Origin: Eledone cirrhosa
Lineage: Eukaryota
DNA: 64,000 nt
Direction: 5' to 3'
NCBI GenBank assembly: GCA_964016885.1
Contig: OZ024742.1
Coordinates: 157,480,001 to 157,544,000 of the forward strand
Of this stretch, positions 25,339 through 56,969 are shown in pieces. Numbering within the stretch: position 1 is the stretch's first letter; each line of letters begins with the position of its first letter. The notes beneath the pieces were generated by a model. It ran no database searches, was not told where the DNA came from, and saw only the letters and a list, made by a program, of their open reading frames with translations. The translations under genes and the position numbers were made by a program.

Positions 25339-25350
25339 GGAACCAGTAAG

Positions 25351-25444
25351 ACCCCGACGGCTGAGCTCAAGCCGTTTCGACGGCTAATTCTGGACTAAAT
25401 GAAAATTTATCCTGGTATTTAAAGAGCCGATCTTCTCAAGGGGT
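25351..25444 (-). ncRNA. Hammerhead motif with U3-A8 variant core (family B)
   Basis: Inverted copy of 29906-29999; core TTGAGAA. Confidence 0.7.
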
Positions 25445-26781
25445 AATTCCATATATGGTCAAAGTGATTGTCAAAAATCAGTGGTAATTCTATGATTGCA
25501 AATTAGTAGGGGAGATGGTGGCTAAACCTGCCAGTAGGAGAAATAGGGGAGGGGGTGGAGTAGACCCAATCATGCGTTGGTAGTGCCAGCTACAGCTGGG
25601 CATGAGGTCAAAGAAGATACTGGGGAGGGGGAGGGGGAGGAAGTCGGAACGCTAGGTAGAACAATGGGGGGTAAAAATATATATGAAAGAAAAAATACTG
25701 AGAGTGAAGAAAAGCGAATAAGTGTAAAGAAAAGAGTAAAGCAAGTTCTACGACCTAGGTCTCTAGCTATCGTTAGGATAGAATAAATAAATAAATAAAG
25801 AAAGAAAGAAGTAAAGAAAGAAATAAAGAAATAACGAAATAAGTAAATGAACTAGGTGGGACGGAATAGGCAAGGACCCTTTTAAGAGGTATAAGTACGT
25901 AAATGATACGGTGACGGGTCAACAAATGGGGCCAAAATACTAAAGAGACTACCACGAAATAAATAATAAAGGTTTCTATCCCGGGCACAATGCCAGCAAC
26001 CACCCAGTGCAGCAAAGTGAACTAGTACGAGATAATAATTCTGAGTCACGAAAAAAAAAATATATACTAATGCTAACTCTAAAATATCTAAAACAAGCTA
26101 CATGAAAGTTCGTACGAAGTAAAGGTAGAATACGGAAAAATAAATTCAGAATGCGCCCAAAAGAAAAGCGAGGAAAGAAATACTGAAACGAGAAAATAAG
26201 GCATAAGTGCCACTAAGAAATATAGAAGGCACGGAGAATAGAGGGAGTGGTCGGAAAAAGGGGGCAAGTATCCGGGGTCTAAACCAACTGCTATAAAAGG
26301 CGGATTCCGCCAAATCTATCATAGACTAGGGGAGGGGGTGGGGGTACTAAGGCTACAAGGGGCCAAAGGGCAGCCTCGGGAGGGCGAGAAAAGACGCCGA
26401 CAAAGGAGAAGAGCTGGGGAAGAAGGACTAAGGAGAGAAGGGGGGAAGGAAATAAAGGAAGCGATAAAAGAATAAAAAGAAAATCTTACGTATCCCTTGG
26501 CAAGCAGGGGTTACCCATTGCAAAATCGGCAAGTGGGGTGTTATAGCCCTTGTCTACCCCCCCCCCCCGGGTCATTATGGGGTTTGAGGGCGAGGTAAGT
26601 CCTACGCAATCTATGTTTACATGCAGTAACCAGTTCATCTTTCTTGTTTAGCCTTAGTACCCCCACCCCCTCCCCTAGTCTATGATAGATTTGGCGGAAT
26701 CCGCCTTTTATAGCAGTTGGTTTAGACCCCGGATACTTGCCCCCTTTTTCCGACCGCTCCCACTATTCTCCGTGCCTTCTA

Positions 26782-28794
26782 GGCACCAAGGAGAGATTCG
26801 GATTTATTACCTACAAATCTCCGCCCTCGAACCCCTTGCTCTCACCCTTCGAGAATGACCTCTTCCAACTGGTCAAGAACATTAAATTTAAACCCAGACA
26901 CAACCGATTCCTACAAAAACTACGTAGCAACTTAACAGAGTATGATAACACAAATGACATCATGGTGCATTCGGATAAAACTGGGAACCTATACTTTGTC
27001 AACCCTGACAGATACCACACACTGATCAGGAGCAGCCTAAACTCCACCTATGAAAAGGCCAACCACTCTTGCATCGAGGACATAAATCGAGATGGACAAC
27101 AAATTACCTCCAGCCTCGGGGTCGCCGACCGCACGGAACCTCTAGACCCACGGACACCATACTTCACACTGGAGGACCATAAATCCGATTTTGACCGTAA
27201 ACCCTCTATCAGGTTTATTAACCCAACGAAGTCCGACATAGGGATAATCAGCAAAAAAATCCTAGACCGCGTGATACCAAAAGTCAAGCAACACGCCCGA
27301 CTTAGCCTATGGATCAACACCCAGGAAGCAATCTCATGGTTCAGCAATATGGAGGATAAACGAGACACTAAATTCATACAGTTCGACATAGAGAGCTACT
27401 ATGCTTCAATCACCTTACCGCTACTTACTGCCGCCTTGGACTTCGCCGAAACACTTGTGCCCATAACCGACCAGGAAAGAAAAATCATCCTCCTCGCCAG
27501 GAAGACAGTCTTACTCTTTGACGACTCTAAATGGATAAAAAGAGCTCCCGACTCACCCTTCGACGTCAGCATGGGAGCCACGGATTCGGCGGAGGTCACA
27601 GATCTTATAGGATTATTCCTAATAGCCAAACTCACTTATATGTTTCCTGCATTCGGTGGTGGATTGTACCGTGATGATGGGCTCCTTACCCTTAAAGGGT
27701 ACAACCCCAGTAGTACAGATCGGGTCCAGAAACAATTAATCAGATTCTTCCGCGACTGGGGATTTAAAATAACCCTACAAACGTCCCTGACCCGAGTAAA
27801 CTTCCTGGACGTTACCCTCGACCTCGAAAACGACCTGTACTACCCATACAGGAAACCTAATGACAATCTGCACTACATCCACCGCCTATCAAACCATCCT
27901 AGGAACATCACAAACGACCTGGTCAAAAACATCTCCCTCCGCATATCCCGTTTGTCAGCTAATGAGCGGATATTCGATGAACATGCGCCTTATTACAACC
28001 AGGCCCTCAAGCGGAGTGGTTTCCGGGAGGAAATATCCTACTGTCCAGCTCCCATTAGCGGAACCAGCAGGAGACACGGCCGCTCACGCAATATAACATG
28101 GTTCAATCCTCCCCCACAACGCAGAGGTGACAACTCCCATCGGGAAACTATTCTTTAGGCTCATTGAAAACACTTCCCATTACAAAACCGCTACCACAAC
28201 ATAATTAACAAAAATACCATCAAACTCTCTTACAGCACTACACCAAACTTCGCACAAAACATCGTCTCCTCTAACAACAAAAAACTCAACCCCGATGGCA
28301 GAAATAACCTAAATAGCAGTGGAGAACCGACCAGGAGGTGTAACTCTCCGGATAGATCCATATGCCCAATCGACAATAGATGCAGAGACCGTAATGTAAT
28401 CTACCAGTGCAACGTGAGGACGGATACCTCCAACAAAGCCTATATAGGACTTACCGCATGTGACTTCAAGACCCGGCTATACCAACATAGACATACCTTC
28501 CGAAACCCGGCCCGGCGTCACGCCACTACACTTTCGGGCCACATGTGGGACCTCAAGGACAACAACATCACCTATGATCTCACTTGGAGATTACTGTCCA
28601 GAGCCAATTCTTACACGGGAGGACGCCGTCCGTGCAATTTATGCTCGGAGGAAACTTTACAAATGCTGTTTTCGACGGACCAACACCTAAACAAGAAAGA
28701 TGAACTGGTTACTGCATGTAAACATAGATTGCGTAGGACTTACCTCGCCCTCAAACCCCATAATGACCCGGGGGGGGGTAGACTAGGGCTATAA
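26782..28794 (+). pseudogene. PLE RT-GIY-YIG polyprotein (family B), slightly 5'-truncated, frameshift near 28110
   Basis: HSDKTGNLY, QFDIESYYASI, FDVSMG, GLYRDDGL, NFLDVTLDL, WFNPP; then VIYQC..AYIGLT..FKTRLYQH..CNLCSEE..CKH. Confidence 0.93.
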
Positions 28795-29905
28795 CACCCC
28801 ACTTGCCGATTTTGCAATGGGCAACCCCTGCTTGCCAAGGGAGACGTAAGATCTTCTTTTTATTCTTTTATCGCTTCCTTTATTTCCTTCCCCCTTCTCT
28901 CCTTAGTCCTTCTACCCCAGCTCTTCTCCTTTGTCGGCGTCTTTTCTCGCCCTCCCGAGGCTGCCCTTTGGCCTCTTGTAGCCTTAGTACCCCCACCCCC
29001 TCCCCTAGTCTATGATAGATTTGGCGGAATCCGCCTTTTATAGCAGTTGGTTTAGACCCCGGATACTTGCCCCCTTTTTCCGACCGCTCCCACTATTCTC
29101 CGTGCCTTCTATATTTCTTAGTGGCACTTATGCCTTATTTTCTCGTTTCAGTATTTCTTTCTTCGCTTTTCTTTTGGGCGGGGTGGATTCTGAATTTATT
29201 TTTCCGTATTCTACCTTTACTTCGTACGAACTTTCATGTAGCTTGTTTTAGATCTTTTAGAGTTAGCATTAGTATATATATATATATATTTTTTTTTTTA
29301 GGGACTCAGAATTATTATCTCGTACTAGTTCACTTTGCTGCACTGGGTGGTTGCTGGCATTGTGCCCGGTTACAAACCTTTATTATTTATTTCGTGGTAG
29401 TCTCTTTAGTATTTTGGCCCCTTTTGTTGACCCGTCACCGTATCATTTACGCACTTATACCTCTTAAAAGGGTCCTTGCCTATTCCGTCCCACCTAGTTC
29501 ATTTACTTATTTCTTGTATTTCTTTATTTCTTTCTTTACTTCTTTCATTCTTTCTTTATTTATTTATTCTAGCCTAACAATAGCTAGAGACCTAGGTCGT
29601 AGTACTCGCTTTACTCTTTTCTTTACACTTATTCGCTTTTCTTCACTCTCAGTATTTTTTCTTTCATATATATTTTTACCCCCCATTGTTCTACCTAGCG
29701 TTCCGACTTCCTCCCCCTCCCCCTCCCCAGTATCTTCTTTGACCTCATGCCCAGCTGTAGCTGGCACTACCAACGCATGATTGGGTCTACTCCACCCCCT
29801 CCCCTCTTTCTCCTACTGGCAGGTTTAGCCGCCATCTCCCCTACTAATTTGCAATCACAGAATTACCACTGATTTTTGACAATCACTTTGACCATATATG
29901 GAATT

Positions 29906-29999
29906 ACCCCTTGAGAAGATCGGCTATTTAAATACCATGATAAATTTTCATTTAGTCCAGAATTAGCCGTCGAAACGGCTTGAGCTCAGCCGTCGGGGT
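29906..29999 (+). ncRNA. Hammerhead motif with U3-A8 variant core (family B)
   Basis: ACCCC-TTGAGAA-GAtCGGCTA...TAGCCGTC-GAAA-CGGC-ttgagctca-GCCG-TC-GGGGT; predicted cleavage after 29994. Confidence 0.72.
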
Positions 30000-30115
30000 C
30001 TTACTGGTTCCTATTACCCACTCTACTACCCCAAGTATTGAGTACTTTGGTGCGTTATGGTCCACCTGGTTCCTTACCACATTTCCTTCGTTTTTTGTGC
30101 CTAACGTAGAAACAG

Positions 30116-30147
<32 letters not shown>

Positions 30148-47408: not shown

Positions 47409-47411
<3 letters not shown>

Positions 47412-48283
47412 GTTGACGGTATATTTAGTCATTTTCTACATGCTGTTGAAATGTTGGGTAAATACTCTATTGTGGTCACCGCGAAGAGGCCGCTTTCGGT
47501 TATTTATCATATATTTCTTCATAGACGCCTTTATTATTATAGCCTGGTCTAATTGATTTTTACATGGTTAATTATGCTAATTGGGAGAGGAAATGTTATA
47601 TATTTTATCTAATAATTCTAAGGACATGATTTATGATTTATTTCTCTGATTATTTAATTTACTAATTCTTCATTGAGCCACATCGTGACCGGTTGCCACA
47701 TATATATCTGTGACTTTATGTATACGTAAATATTTATATTTAATAATCACCCGTTGGGTTGAGATGCAATTGGGCGATATTGGGCTGCGCTTTCTAGCAA
47801 CCAGCCTACTCGCCGTAAGCAACTAATCACAATCTTTCTAACTTGACCACTGATATGTCACGTTTCTTAGCCATGTTTTGAATCTATTTCTGGCTCGATC
47901 GCTTTGGAAAATGAACTGTCCGACTGAGTGTGTCTCCTGATGAGTTTGTTTCTCTAGATTCGTCCTTAATAATAGGATATCTCAAAATACGAACGAAACC
48001 ATGGTAGGGATGTAATTACAGCATGTACACGTTTCTTCTAAGTTTAAATTTACATGGTTGACGGTATATTTAGTCATTTTCTACATGCTGTTGAAATGTT
48101 GGGTAAATACTCTATTGTGGTCACCGCGAAAAGGCCGCTTTCGGTTATTTATCAAATATTTCTTCATAGGAGCCTTTATTCTTATAGCCTGGTCTAATTG
48201 ATTTTTTATATGGTTAATTATGCTAATTGGGAGAGGAAATGGTATATATTTTATCTAATAGTTCTAAGGACATGATTTATGAT
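47409..48283 (+). mobile_element. Non-coding 645-bp-period partial tandem (1.36 units) carrying a hammerhead; retrozyme/mini-PLE-like
   Basis: 47409-47637 is repeated at 48054-48283; flanked by (TA)n. Confidence 0.8.
47932..48011 (+). ncRNA. Type I hammerhead ribozyme motif
   Basis: GTCTC-CTGATGA-GTTTGT...ACGAAC-GAAA-CCATGG-TA-GGGAT; palindromic stem III ACCATGGT. Confidence 0.82.
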
Positions 48284-48298
48284 ATATATATATATATA

Positions 48299-48530
48299 GA
48301 TATAAGTATGTGTGTATACGTTCATACATATATGTATACAGACGTCTAACAAGCTTGAAACTAGTACATCGTTCCTGTGTCAGTGTTGAACAAAAAGGTG
48401 ACGTGGTTGCCTTAACACCGTACGGCATAAAAATGCAGGCTGTTCAGTTTGTTTTCAAACGAAGAAAGCGGCGTTATAATGAGCGTACGCTAAACTGATA
48501 CGTGCATATATGTATGTGTACGTGTATGTA

Positions 48531-48576
<46 letters not shown>

Positions 48577-49013
48577 TGCTACTGTACGTCTGTATACATA
48601 TATGTATGTACGTATACACACATATTTACATCTAAGTAAGTGCCGTACTAAGAGTGAGAAATGAAATTTCGTTTTCATTTTATTTCAACTTATCGTTTTC
48701 GGTATGCCTGACCGACTTAGCTCACTCGATATGCAAATTAGGCTGCTCAGCCGTTAATTTTCATGAGGAAAGTATATACTTTCAAACGTTCAACTATCTG
48801 GCAGGTGGGTATACGGTGCTGATGATAGCTAACAAGCTTGAAACTAGTACATCGTTCCTGTGTCAGTGTTGAACAAAAAGGTGACGTGGTTGCCTTAACA
48901 CCGTACGGCATAAAAATTCAGGCTGTTCAGTTTGTTTACAAACGAACAAAGCGGCGTTATAATAAGCGTACGCTAAACTGATACGTGCATATATGTATGT
49001 GTACCTGTATGTA

Positions 49014-49105
<92 letters not shown>

Positions 49106-49542
49106 TGCTACTGTACGTCTGTATACATATATGTATGTACGTATACACACATACTTACATCTAAGTAAGTGCCGTACTAAGAGTGAGAAATGAAATTTCG
49201 TTTTCATTTTATCTCAACTTATCGTTTTCGGTATGCCTGACCGACTTAGCTCACTCGATATGAAAATTAGGCTGCTCAGCCGTTAATTTTCATAAGGAAA
49301 GTATATACTTTCAAACGTTCAACTATCTGGCAGGTGGGTATAGGGTGCTGATGATAGCTAACAAGCTTGAAACTCGTACATCGTTCCTGTGTCAGTGTTG
49401 AACAAAAAGGTGACGTGGTTGCCTTAACACCGTACGGCATAAACATTCAGGCTGTTCAGTTTGTTTACAAACGAACAAAGCGGCGTTATAATAAGCGTAC
49501 GCTAAACTGATACGTGCATATATGTATGTGTACCTGTATGTA

Positions 49543-49575
<33 letters not shown>

Positions 49576-49690
49576 GCATACTACTGTACGTCTGTATACA
49601 TATATGTATGTACGTTTACACACATACTTACATCTAAGTAAGTGCCGTACTAAGAGTGAGAAATGAAATTTCGTTTTCATTTTATTTCAA

Positions 49691-49693
<3 letters not shown>
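48299..49693 (+). repeat. ~480-530 bp tandem array (~2.7 units) with a minimal hammerhead per unit and a 5' inversion (retrozyme-like)
   Basis: CTAACAAGCTTGAAACT recurs at 48346, 48829 and 49358; unit length varies with an internal (TA)n; 48299-48345 is an inverted piece of the unit. Confidence 0.85.
48814..48854 (+). ncRNA. Minimal hammerhead motif (second copy at 49344-49383)
   Basis: CGGTG-CTGATGA-tAGCT aaca AGCTt-GAAA-CTAG-TA-CATCG; palindromic stem III ACTAGT. Confidence 0.75.
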
Positions 49694-49766
<73 letters not shown>

Positions 49767-52769: not shown

Positions 52770-54406
52770 CGTTTCTGAATTTGTTTAGCAAGATTCTTTA
52801 TCTGAAATCGTGTGTTGAAACCGATATTCTTATACTTTGGGAGGGTCATGTTGCCAATAAGAAACACACGCACCAGTTGCCTTCACTTCAATTCATTATA
52901 TATTTATAAATTTATAAATTTATAAATTTACAAATTTATAAATTTCTGGTTGGTTGGTTCTACAACCAGATAGTTGTTTATATATAGTCATAGTTCTTTC
53001 GTCACACACTCTGTGACCTCTTCAGTGACTGGGGATTCCTTTCTTTGTTTCTGTGCCTCTCCTTTGTTCTGTCCTACGCCATTTTGTTTCTGTGTGTGTG
53101 TTGTGTGTTCAGTCTGCGCATGCGCCACATCCGGGTGTCTGTGTGTCTTTATGTTCATTTATTTATTTGTTTATTTACATGTTACTGGTTGGTTGTTTGT
53201 ACTATGTGTGTGTGTGTTTTCATTTTGTCCTTAATTGTAAGTTGTGATGTTGCTGTTCCACTCATATTTTCTATTTAATTTTGGTTGTAATTCTTTTATG
53301 TTTATTGCCTCTGTAATTTGTCTAAACATTGCGTCTTTTCTGTGTGTAGATTCTATTTTTATTTCTATGTTCTCTAATTTACCCTTGTGTTCTATCTTAG
53401 CATGTTGGTAGAGTACAGATGATTCTTTATTATCCTGAAGGTCTCGCCAGTGTTCATTTATCCGTTCCCCTACACTACGAGCTGTCTCACCTATGTACAC
53501 TATATTTTTGTCTCTACATTGTCCTTCAGTACATCTTATGCTATACACTACATTTCTAGTTTTACAGTTAATATGGGGGCTTATTTTACAGGTTATACAT
53601 TTCTTAACTATACATGAGGGTCTTTGGAACGGGTATGTCTTGCTAATAAGTGTTTTTACGGAGGTACCTGGTCTTTCTACTATCTTAATATTGAGTTTAT
53701 GTTTATTTAGGGCCCTTCTAAATTTGTAAGCTAATTCACCTCTAGGGGTTGTATTGATGAACAGTACACTCTGGTAGTTATTGCTATCATACCATGAGTT
53801 TATTCTATTAGCCTTGTTCCTAGTTCTTTCTATTCTATTCCAAAATTTGCTCCTATACAAGGGGCAGGTCCCATTTATGTCATTATTTACCATTTTTTCC
53901 CATTTGGTTCTGGCTCCTCTATACACTCTGATTTTATCTCTCTGATTGTAGCCAGAGAACTGCATACGGTGGATGAAGTGTTGTATGTGTCTCTCTAGTT
54001 CCTCGGGGTTGCACATGCGGGACACATTTCTCATCACCCGTACCAAATCCGCAATCAGTATGTTGATTTTGGTATGGTCCGAAATGGCCGAGTTTTGGTG
54101 GATCAGATGTTTGGAAGTCATGGGTTTGGCATAATGGGAATGGAGGATTCGTTTTTTGTTGTTAATGGTATCTAACCAGAGCTCTGTATCTAGTACAGGT
54201 AATCGATGGTTGGGGTGTTTACTTGGGTAGTCTATAGTAACTCTAATGCTCTGGTGGATGGAGTTTGCTATTTGCTGGATGCTTTCCATTGTGTTTTTCT
54301 CTAGTTCCTGACTGTTCTCTAGTGGGGGTGTCTTAACTACGATGTTTATATCATCTACGTAGCGGGAGTACATTATCAGGGTTAAGGGGTCTTCTAATTG
54401 TTCTTT
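52767..54406 (-). mobile_element. Penelope-like element family F (Neptune/Nematis-like), 5'-truncated
   Basis: Uninterrupted ORF plus a 3' UTR with a hammerhead at 52986-53030, ending in (TA)n. The clade is inferred. Confidence 0.9.
53231..54406 (-). CDS. C-terminal half of a PLE RT-GIY-YIG protein (open frame, 5'-truncated)
   Basis: YSRYVDD, LPVLDTELW, HYAKPM, RMQFSGY, C..C..C..C, VVYSIRC..YIGETARSVGERINEH, EA..I..LN. The 417 aa track ORF gets its N-terminus from flanking (TTAAGT)n. Confidence 0.85.
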   Translation of the reverse strand, partial: KEQLEDPLTLIMYSRYVDDINIVVKTPPLENSQELEKNTMESIQQIANSIHQSIRVTIDYPSKHPNHRLPVLDTELWLDTINNKKRILHSHYAKPMTSKHLIHQNSAISDHTKINILIADLVRVMRNVSRMCNPEELERHIQHFIHRMQFSGYNQRDKIRVYRGARTKWEKMVNNDINGTCPLYRSKFWNRIERTRNKANRINSWYDSNNYQSVLFINTTPRGELAYKFRRALNKHKLNIKIVERPGTSVKTLISKTYPFQRPSCIVKKCITCKISPHINCKTRNVVYSIRCTEGQCRDKNIVYIGETARSVGERINEHWRDLQDNKESSVLYQHAKIEHKGKLENIEIKIESTHRKDAMFRQITEAINIKELQPKLNRKYEWNSNITTYN

Positions 54407-56969
54407 AAGTTTAAGTTTAAGTTTAAGTTTAAGTTTAAGTCTGCTGGCTATTACACAGCGAAACGGAAATATGACAATTCGCATGGAAAAAATTGAATTA
54501 TTGCAAGATTCTTATTTTCATAATCTCTGAGCTTAAAATATTCAAATACAGTATAGTGAATACTACATTTCCGTAGAGATGACATCTCATTTGGCAAACA
54601 CTAAAATCACTAGTTCATCATAATACTGCTTCTTCTAGTTGCCTTTATATCGCTATTATAAATATTTTTGATCATCTAAATTAGCTCGTTTAATAATCGG
54701 GAAATAAAAGTATTTCGACATTAGTTGTGTCTGAAACCTGGAAATACGCACTTTTCTGAATCCTACGTACTACACAATATGCACAGCACTACAATGCTAT
54801 TCGTATCCACACCTGCATATACATATCTGTCGACGGAACCCCAAACGGTGTAGCTCTATAGATTGTTCTTATTATGTTTAGCTGGCCTACAAGCATGGTT
54901 ATGTTATAGCTTTCCGCTTTCCCAAAGTAGCCAATTTAAGTAAATATAGGCCAAGCTATTTGACATACAATTTAACTACTGAGGCATATTCTGAAGGAAA
55001 TCAGAAAGAAAGAATTCAGTTATGTGAAAATATACTGAATATAGAATAATAGCTTCATCAAAATAATCATATTCCTGTCAGATAATCTTTAGAATTATTG
55101 GTTCCTAACGTGGAAAATATATGTTTATTGAATTATAAATATTCCAACACTTATTACATTATCAAGATTTCGCAGAGGTCATTTATTCACAAAATATTCA
55201 CAACTAGCCAACGTGTGAGAAATTTAATCTATGTTTCAACACCAAAACACTAATTCTGTGAAATGTATTGTTTTGTTTTTTTATCAATAGAATCAATCTA
55301 CTAATAACCCAATTTTGCATTCATGCAAAATTTCATTTTGATATCAAGATATAGACCATTCAATTTATAGCATTACATACATATCCCGCCGAGCATAATG
55401 TCGCGTTTAACACACAGGCAATTGTTATAAACTAACAACTTATCTACAGTAAATATTGATTTTGATCTATTCAAAACAAGAAAAATCTCTGAATATTAAT
55501 GAAAGCGAGGGAAAATACCTAAAAATGTATTTTTATTAAATAATTAGACGGCAAACAATGTTGAATTTAAAAATACCTCGGTATTTGGTGAAGTCGCTGT
55601 CGAGGTCAACATTGTATTTCATCTTTTTGATGTCGATAAATAAAATAACCAAGATTTCTCCGACTCTCTGCCTCCCTCACCCTTCCCCTCTCTCTACTTC
55701 TCTAGCTAACTCTAGAAGAAAACAGCAGCAACGCGCCCTAAGGAGGAATGTACTTTGTAAGGTTTAACATGAACAAAATAAGCCTGTGTGCCAGCACGGT
55801 GCCCTAGAATTCCAGTTTTACACTAAATAAGGAAATATCATATAAGCATAATTCCCGGTAGGATTATAGATGATTTAATGAAATTTCCTATACCTTCTTT
55901 TTTAAAAATACATTGATAGAAAATAGAAATCTGTAGAAATGGGATTCCCAAAAGGCTATACCATTTGCAAATATAATATGCTGTCTATAAGTAGAAGCGT
56001 TGATGTTTTCCTCAACCCTATTTTATTAGTAACACTTTACATTTAATACAAATTAAATAGCAGATCCCTGTGACTGAGTGGATTAAATTTTACTTTAAAT
56101 TGAAAGGTTTTCTTTATATAATATTTAATTATTGACGAAAGATTACGAAAACTTTCCTGCTTTTTATATATTTGTGATTAATTACTTAAATTTTAGTCGA
56201 ATTTTTAATGAACTAAGTAATTAAGATTATATAATAATTGGCATAGATTATTAGTGACAAAACACAACTGTATGTTGCTAATTAGATTTTACTTTCTATT
56301 GTCTGTGCACCTCTATCAAATTTGCTAACTAATCACCGAATAAAAGAATGTTTAAAAATAAATAATCAAAATGACAAAACATCGATATTTTCAATATGTT
56401 TTCTAAATAAATGGTTAGTCTAATTATATCCAAGCACTTCCAGAACACGGTAATTACAATGTCCCAAATACATTCTAGGTCGACAATTCAAATTAATTAA
56501 TTTTTGTAAGTTTATTTGCAAGATTATGCAATATGTTATTCACGAAACTAGTTATTATATTTTAAGATTGACATCGATTTTTATTTATTTTACCTAATTT
56601 TCTGAAACACATTTGATATATTTGTATTTAGTATTTTAGTATATCTACAGGGAATCTAATTTATATACACATAGAAAGAGATTTATGATTTCCAGGAATT
56701 CTTCCAACATAGCTCTAATGATATTCCTAATATTACTCTATAATATACCTATTGCACGTCAACAACCATATACGCCAACACAACAAAATATGGCCTATGC
56801 ATATATATAAAGCCATCATGTCACAAATCACAACAAGCACTAAATTATCCTCATATCGCCAATCTGAAGAATAGATCGATAATAGACTCGGGTCCATAAT
56901 ACACAATAATTAACTAATTCATGAAAACGAAAGTTCATGGTTCCTTTAATATATATATATGTGTGTGTG

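What the first reader, a model, noticed from the sequence alone, without database searches (positions are those of the whole stretch)
48299..49693. Non-coding tandem of a 41-nt minimal hammerhead with a built-in (TA)n tract and PLE-style 5' inversion
Seen: ~2.7 units, each with (part of) CTGATGA-tAGCTaacaAGCTt-GAAA-CTAG-TA. Stem III is the 6-nt palindrome ACTAGT, so cleavage probably needs two adjacent units (dimeric HHR). The array starts mid-ribozyme and is preceded by a 47-bp inverted piece of the unit, the same geometry as the coding PLEs here. Inference: a retrozyme copied by rolling reverse transcription of a ~0.5 kb circular RNA using a PLE RT.
Basis: partly seen in the sequence, partly recalled or inferred. 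Interest (0 to 1): 0.72.

Follow-up and report, generated by a model that had tools for sequence, protein, structure and literature searches.

The report
Two-armed hammerhead retrozyme with Penelope ends
This is an ageing copy of a protein-free jumping repeat that carries a predicted self-cutting RNA and occurs over ten thousand times in this animal genome; the kind is known, but its copies sit as back-to-back arms with two fixed ends, likely written by a Penelope-type transposon enzyme running round one small, probably circular RNA.

Summary
Observation confirmed: 2.7 tandem units (483 and 529 nt between predicted cut sites), a type I hammerhead with palindromic stem III, and a 47-nt inverted piece, all in (TA)n. 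Corrections: the ribozyme is canonical, not minimal, and only one of three is intact here.

It is not a local duplication: the 27-nt core occurs 10,823 times. Insertions have two back-to-back arms. Of 60 anchored on the long end, 42 pair with a short end about 61 nt upstream and none with another long end. This is the Penelope 'tail' footprint.

Young arrays have up to 12 identical units across both arms, with locus-specific variants and TA spacers. Inner ends are not enriched at the cut site (3 of 119), and 0 of 312 joins carry indels there. One monomer was copied repeatedly, most likely as a circle.

Five copies are fused to two Hydra-type coding Penelope families.

Verdict: new member of the known animal non-LTR retrozymes. 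Its copies give genomic evidence for the proposed Penelope-driven rolling reverse transcription. Circle and cleavage are untested. The scan reported this architecture before on other DNA of this genome.

The parts
48282..48298 (.). left (TA)n target remnant
   Evidence: sequence; outer ends of family copies abut TA
48299..48345 (-). short arm: 47-nt inverted piece (unit positions B14-62) ending at the fixed 'short' end
   Evidence: 2,597 exact short-end/TA junctions genome-wide
48346..48372 (+). 3' half of first hammerhead (no CTGATGA); predicted cut after 48366; inner end of the long arm
48367..48849 (+). monomer 1, 483 nt cut to cut, non-coding
   Evidence: ATG-started frames of at most 62 aa, mostly TA-derived
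48525..48573 (.). internal (TA)n at the tip of a long predicted AT-rich hairpin (also 49008-49102 and 49537-49575)
48798..48866 (+). intact type I hammerhead with extended stem I; core 48819-48825, palindrome ACTAGT 48843-48848, predicted cut after 48849
48850..49378 (+). monomer 2, 529 nt cut to cut
49161..49222 (+). internal copy of the ~61-nt 'tail' between the short end (B59-62) and the long end (B118-121); folds in part as a hairpin
49342..49384 (+). third hammerhead, damaged (C>G 49343 in stem I, A>C 49375 in the palindrome)
49379..49693 (+). partial third unit ending at the fixed 'long' end
   Evidence: 1,827 exact long-end/TA junctions genome-wide
49693..49766 (.). right (TA)n target remnant

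Best explanation
The stretch is one two-armed insertion of a high-copy, non-coding tandem repeat with a type I hammerhead fold (an animal non-LTR retrozyme), likely inserted by a Hydra-type Penelope-like RT-endonuclease that copied one probably circular monomer RNA from both ends of a break in (TA)n. Shown: copy number, fixed paired ends, TA targets, identity of units within young insertions, conserved fold. Inferred steps: (1) read-through transcripts of arrays self-cleave as hammerhead dimers through the ACUAGU palindrome; (2) the ~0.48-0.53 kb monomer is ligated into a circle; (3) the PLE enzyme cuts both strands in (TA)n and primes one DNA end at the long site and the other at the short site, ~61 nt upstream on the RNA; (4) each RT runs round for from less than one to about 15 laps; (5) the two cDNAs join head to head with 0-3 nt of overlap. 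The window copy has decayed and probably cannot release a monomer efficiently. My odds: dispersed retrozyme family 0.97, PLE machinery 0.9, single-monomer template 0.85, covalent circle 0.65.
For: Copy number: 10,823 core hits, control 0. End pairing, replicate sample: of 60 long-end-anchored loci, 42 have an opposite arm ending at the short site, 3 end elsewhere, 15 show no adjacent arm, and 0 are long+long. Of 20 short-anchored loci, 13 pair with a long end, 1 runs off the edge, 6 show no arm, and 0 are short+short (my tally). First sample: 26 of 35 pairs are long+short; 9 have one end unresolved or off-class. PMC11167929 shows a PLE protein extending both strands from two adjacent internal RNA sites that define the tail. 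Single template: L168 (12 full units), L148 (11), L186 (10) and L136 (6) have 0 differences; 16 arrays with 4 or more full units give 119 private against 9 shared variable columns; TA spacers are uniform within a locus but differ between loci (31, 33, 41). Variants seen in only 1 of 62 loci are in every covering unit of both arms in L070, L104, L125, L147, L149 and L186. There are 45 haplotypes among those 62 loci. No run-off: 3 of 119 inner ends lie within 3 nt of the cut site, 2.5 expected; 0 of 312 joins have an indel at positions 273-282; none of 22 odd joins among 392 same-strand pairs falls at the cut. Link to coding PLEs: L065 and L062 are fused mid-ORF to family X; L078, L108 and L164 carry the short end of family Y. 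Hydra motifs: CxCx5C linker in X, DKT in Y. Dimer fold -19.0 kcal/mol against -2.2 for two monomers with the 1-bp stem III.
Against: No RNA, circle or cleavage was observed. PMC11167929 found hammerhead cleavage dispensable for insertion in vitro, with unprocessed RNA the main substrate. The 2026 preprint saw cleavage in only 1 of 9 predicted retrozymes. Transcripts of a young homogeneous array would also give identical units. L071 has 14 shared columns, including a left-arm unit that matches a right-arm unit. Three foreign-arm joins (L077, L099, L109) pair long with long, so complementarity among foreign-arm joins is only 5 of 8, and some may be nested insertions followed by deletion. A few real internal jumps exist (L163, L118, L141). 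No autonomous PLE related in sequence to the unit was found. The conserved join is also a ribozyme core, so selection could explain part of the 0 of 312, and neighbouring bins are also nearly free of indels.
Confidence: 0.68

Rival explanations
1. Same PLE machinery, but the template is a cleaved linear monomer that the RT re-enters end to end (repeated jumps on one molecule), with no covalent circle.
For: It explains the single-monomer signal equally well. The long stem I would hold the two ends together. Internal jumps and inter-family switches occur. An earlier scan note on another family argues for this (e1-8664908).
Against: No pile-up of inner ends at the cut (3 of 119) and no indels at 312 joins. 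Jumps by non-LTR RTs usually leave small scars (recalled, not from a call).
Confidence: 0.14
2. The template is an uncleaved multimeric read-through transcript of young homogeneous arrays; the hammerhead is incidental to mobility.
For: Hammerhead activity was not needed for PAc insertion in vitro. Very young homogeneous arrays of 10-19 units exist. Stem III is too short for the monomer fold.
Against: Locus-unique variants and spacers fixed across both arms need a one-unit bottleneck at some step. Position-matched sharing between arms is almost absent. The fold is kept with compensatory changes in three families.
Confidence: 0.12
3. Single units insert and arrays then grow at DNA level (slippage or unequal exchange), as in satellites; this is the route discussed in the 2026 preprint.
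For: It gives identical units. Old arrays such as L071 show signs of exchange between units. The preprint proposes it.
Against: Both inverted arms would have to expand independently yet stay identical in TA spacer. Private-only variation (119 against 9) shows no duplication hierarchy.
Confidence: 0.05
4. The unit is the 3' UTR or pLTR of a coding PLE, duplicated locally.
For: Coding PLEs in the window share the geometry.
Against: 10,823 dispersed cores. No similarity to any coding element of the window at word size 7. In the 82 loci screened by tblastn, the two PLE ORFs that abut the unit join it mid-ORF at different points.
Confidence: 0.01

Closest known systems
Animal non-LTR retrozymes (Cervera and de la Pena 2020, PMC7229834, parts 2-4 of 6 read; Li, Clavereau and Pollet 2026, 10.64898/2026.07.22.740005, parts 1-3 of 5 read)
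   Same: Non-coding, low-GC tandem units with one type I hammerhead each; thousands of copies; short palindromic helix III and U-U at the base of helix II, as described for the axolotl ribozymes; PLE mobilisation and tandem cDNA from a circle are proposed there.
   Different: The unit (480-530 nt) is above the 150-450 nt range of the 2020 paper, though within 51-972 of the preprint. The parts read do not describe two-armed insertions with complementary fixed ends or fusions to coding PLEs. No sister pLTR was found here. Circular RNA is shown there, not here.
EN+ Penelope-like elements, Hydra clade (Craig et al. 2021, PMC8557442, passages and section 11 read)
   Same: Partial tandems, an inverted 5'-truncated copy, a tail at one end, (TA)n targets, canonical hammerheads.
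   Different: No ORF; tail ~61 nt rather than 30-40; up to about 19 tandem units per insertion.
Anolis Poseidon PAc mechanism (Frangieh et al. 2024, PMC11167929, parts 1-2 of 4 read)
   Same: Two adjacent internal RT start sites, both DNA strands cut and extended, AT-rich target.
   Different: PAc is a coding element on a linear RNA, and its hammerhead was dispensable. Here the two sites are used one per arm, which the text read does not report.
Canonical metazoan type I hammerheads versus min-HHRs (Cervera and de la Pena 2014, PMC4209133, passages read)
   Same: Helix I 6 bp, helix II 4 bp, helix III 1-2 bp with a small palindromic loop; predicted dimeric activity.
   Different: Not a min-HHR, which has no helix III or loop 3 and a larger helix II. 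Loop 1-loop 2 contacts were not tested.

Membership tests
Animal non-LTR retrozyme | Tandem units of a few hundred nt, each with a type I hammerhead | tested here: met
   (285 of 314 units with intact core and palindrome)
Animal non-LTR retrozyme | Non-coding, GC below 50% | tested here: met
   ATG-started frames of at most 62 aa; GC 0.33-0.35
Animal non-LTR retrozyme | Dispersed, high copy number | tested here: met
   10,823 exact cores
Animal non-LTR retrozyme | [quoted passage not shown] | tested here: inconclusive
   Met by many family copies. In the window copy the second full motif has two damaging changes.
Animal non-LTR retrozyme | No LTR, PBS or PPT | tested here: inconclusive
   Outer ends are inverted arms in TA, not LTRs; PBS and PPT were not searched for
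Animal non-LTR retrozyme | Target-site duplications longer than 4 bp when present | tested here: inconclusive
   Both flanks are (TA)n, so a duplication cannot be read
Animal non-LTR retrozyme | Self-cleavage in vitro | not testable with these tools
   fold and covariation only
Animal non-LTR retrozyme | Accumulates as circular RNA | not testable with these tools
   indirect genomic signs only
Autonomous Penelope-like element | Own RT and GIY-YIG ORF | tested here: not met
PLE-mobilised element (works like) | Inverted 5'-truncated arm and a tail at one end | tested here: met
PLE-mobilised element (works like) | pLTR homology with an autonomous partner | tested here: not met
   None in the window and none evident in the 82 loci screened by tblastn; the genome was not searched exhaustively
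min-HHR of PLEs | No helix III or loop 3, enlarged helix II | tested here: not met
   helix II 4 bp, palindromic loop 3 present

The most novel reading that the evidence does not exclude
A Hydra-type Penelope enzyme primes the two ends of one DNA break at two fixed sites of a ribozyme-made RNA circle and rolls round it on both sides. It recognises the retrozyme by structure rather than by pLTR sequence. One insertion complex can hold or switch between different RNAs, so retrozyme and coding-element arms are written into the same insertion, and more than one Hydra family services the same retrozyme.
Probability: 0.4. Interest if true: 0.78.

Novelty: new member of a known kind. Interest (0 to 1): 0.55.

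Why it matters
The papers read propose, but do not show, that animal retrozymes spread when a Penelope-type RT copies their circular RNA into tandem cDNA. This family names the two RT start sites on the RNA, the target (TA repeats) and candidate enzymes (two Hydra-type families fused to it). It also gives a sequence signature of one monomer copied many times into both arms. The step can therefore be tested directly in the published PAc-style assay. It also shows in a genome that the PLE tail reflects one start site per DNA end. A telomerase-related RT that rolls round a defined RNA circle and integrates the product would also interest genome-writing work.

Tried and rejected
RNA runs: no RNA holder listed. 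Laying contigs of 4 of the 6 listed runs, all of unknown kind, showed pieces of the unit, including 6 and 5 contigs in two other coded organisms. It says nothing on expression or circles.

Rfam: the whole-window scan listed only AT-repeat noise such as miRNA models in the 150 of 174 rows shown. The short scan gave a sub-threshold HH9 match. Unconstrained folding of the 51-nt motif was not better than shuffles (z -0.81) and did not give the hammerhead fold. A 366-nt piece without the TA hairpin did beat shuffles (z -4.8, 60 shuffles).

RNA-editing scars, a lead from e1-8803865: not seen in unit-private changes (A>G 21, T>C 26, p 0.66). Locus-fixed changes were 9 against 4, too few to call.

Autonomous parent: not found by tblastn of 10 window ORFs against 82 loci or by sensitive blastn in the window. 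The most distant hammerhead relative found led to a non-coding sister family. Pfam named none of the four PLE frames tested.

Fold-back of the long arm as the source of the inversion: rejected, because either arm can be the longer one.

A long+short rule for foreign-arm joins: not established (5 of 8). Joins to the (GAT)n-ending repeat (L073, L074, L075, L088, L105) were set aside as probable later insertions; L074 resumes beyond it.

Print searches listed no paper whose title or abstract start describes two-armed retrozyme insertions. Only six papers were opened, and no supplements were read; Fig. S9 of PMC7229834, Fig. S2 of PMC11167929 and the preprint's tables may bear on novelty.

Full report
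Observation. The sequence at 48299-49693 is as described. A 47-nt inverted piece (48299-48345) directly abuts a plus-strand array that starts 21 nt before a predicted cut site and runs 2.7 units to 49693. TA repeats lie on both sides and inside each unit. I numbered the unit from the cut: part A (172 nt), the TA tract, part B (277 nt, ending in the ribozyme). Only the hammerhead at 48813-48855 is intact. The third has changes in stem I and in the palindrome. The window's units differ at 14 columns, all private, so this copy is no longer young.

The ribozyme. Rfam gives only a sub-threshold HH9 match, so I tested the fold by comparison. Across 314 units the core is nearly invariant except at its free position 7. 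The loci held two related families with the same frame. On 9 rows from the three families, 88% of cells pair and 12 of 21 pairs change on both sides; 0 of 500 shuffles reach the covariation score, and slid controls fall to 33-47% paired (the rows are related, so this is not a probability). Stem I extends past a bulge to about 48798-48866. Stem III is palindromic in all three families (ACTAGT, ACTAGT, ACGCGT). A dimer fold scores -19.0 kcal/mol, against -2.2 for two monomers with the 1-bp stem III and -13.0 for two monomers with none. PMC4209133 calls this layout canonical and dimer-dependent, not minimal (passages).

The family. The 27-nt core has 10,823 exact matches in the 3.0-Gb genome, and the control has 0. 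I fetched the first 52 regions on contig C1 by core motif. I then fetched a replicate of 60 consecutive long-end hits and 20 short-end hits chosen outside those regions. Insertions are typically two arms back to back. One arm ends at B118-121 (long end) and the other at B59-62 (short end), each running into TA. In the replicate, 42 of 60 long-anchored loci have a short-ended partner, 3 end elsewhere, 15 show no adjacent arm, and none is long+long. Of 20 short-anchored loci, 13 pair with a long end and none with a short end. In the first sample 26 of 35 pairs are long+short and 9 have an unresolved or off-class end. Genome-wide there are 1,827 exact long ends and 2,597 exact short ends in TA, and 5,745 internal copies of the long-end motif (the patterns differ in sensitivity). 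Arms mostly meet with -3 to +3 nt of overlap or gap. Either arm may be the longer one, which rules out simple fold-back.

What makes such ends. Craig et al. describe partial tandems, an inverted truncated copy and a tail at one end as the PLE footprint, with (TA)n targets for the Hydra clade. Frangieh et al. show a PLE protein cutting and extending both strands, starting at two adjacent internal RNA sites that bound the tail. The coding element in this window (about 25339-30118, here family Y) has the same layout with a 105-nt tail, and at least five other repeat families in the loci also show two end classes. I infer one RT start per DNA end.

What the template was. Units are closer within an insertion than between insertions (median 1.5% against 7.9% for part A; 1.5-1.8% against 4.8% for part B), equally for the same and the opposite arm. 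In 16 arrays with 4 or more full units, 119 variable columns are private and 9 shared. L168, L148, L186 and L136 have no differences over 12, 11, 10 and 6 units. The TA spacer is constant within L168 and L148 (31), L152 (33) and L125 (41). There are 45 haplotypes among 62 loci. Variants seen in one locus only are present in every covering unit of both arms in six loci. Unit-private changes show no A>G excess over T>C (21 against 26), as expected for DNA mutation after insertion; C>T and A>C show mild excesses at p about 0.04 among six tests. So one monomer was copied repeatedly. Inner ends are spread over the unit, with no excess at the cut site (3 of 119, 2.5 expected). None of 312 joins has an indel there, and none of 22 irregular same-strand joins out of 392 lies there. 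A ligated circle explains this most simply. End-to-end reuse of one linear monomer, and uncleaved transcripts of young homogeneous arrays, remain possible. L071, an old array with 14 shared columns, is the exception.

Link to coding elements. In L065 the unit is fused at B25 to the middle of the RT gene of family X, which runs on to X's short end in TA, while the opposite arm has the retrozyme's long end. In L062 a short-ended retrozyme arm is fused to X's endonuclease region and the opposite arm is X's long end. L078 and L108 pair a long-ended retrozyme arm with Y's short end, and L164 has Y's short end inside an arm. X has a CxCx5C linker before its endonuclease and Y has the DKT motif, both listed for Hydra; no tree was built. 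An older-subfamily copy (L076) pairs with a third family's short end. Against a strict rule, L077, L099 and L109 pair long with long, and nested insertion with deletion cannot be excluded in a genome so dense in these repeats. No autonomous element homologous to the unit was found.

The TA tract. A collinear sister family (468-nt unit, 5,217 exact cores) keeps a similar predicted branched circular fold but has an ordinary AT-rich hairpin where this family has pure TA. The pure tract is therefore not essential to the design. It also serves as a landing site: 8 of 371 tracts are over 250 nt, and L134 holds the sister family there.

Comparison and verdict. The element meets the testable features of animal non-LTR retrozymes. 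PMC7229834 shows circles for coral, mussel and axolotl members and proposes PLE mobilisation with tandem cDNA. The 2026 preprint links retrozymes to pLTRs by homology and found cleavage in 1 of 9 tested. It is a new member of a known kind. The added value is the insertion record, which makes the proposed mechanism testable. Earlier notes of this scan report the same architecture in other families of this genome, and probably in this one. They are unchecked AI notes and I do not count them as support. They call the host a cephalopod, which I did not test. Interest 0.55.

Noticed in passing
window 47411-48280: A different hammerhead repeat (core at 47937, oversized stem II, palindromic stem III, ~645-nt unit) lies directly left of the finding between TA tracts; relatives occur in 7 other fetched loci.
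   Followed up: partly
L134:4051-5403; L193-L222: Sister retrozyme family, 468-nt unit, 5,217 exact cores, back-to-back arrays of up to about 21 units, collinear with this family.
   Followed up: partly
L040:2813-2884, L015:1126-1197: Third related hammerhead family with an ACGCGT palindrome.
   Followed up: no
window 25339-30118: Coding PLE (RT 26689-28158, GIY-YIG 28168-28794, broken into two frames) with an inverted arm, DKT motif and 105-nt tail; its short end recurs several times in the window.
   Followed up: partly
window 4931(-), 21297(+), 30232(-), 41142(+), 50455(-), 53025(-): Further hammerhead-like motifs. The 50455/53025 pair lies beside the PLE-like frame at 53231-54511.
   Followed up: no
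fetched loci, unit position A63-66: Inner ends cluster at reference positions 340-343 (11 of 119), next to an A run; possibly an RT pause or a joining hot spot.
   Followed up: no
L163, L118, L110: Internal jumps or deletions whose upstream side stops at the short start site B59-62, as if the RT restarted there.
   Followed up: no
L071: A left-arm unit and the innermost right-arm unit share several derived variants; gene conversion between the inverted arms or a multimeric template.
   Followed up: no
L082:2104-2694: 591 nt of an unrelated ~55-nt minisatellite sit between the two retrozyme arms.
   Followed up: no
L090, L134, L141, L176: An older subfamily with a diverged part A but conserved part B and hammerhead.
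   Followed up: partly
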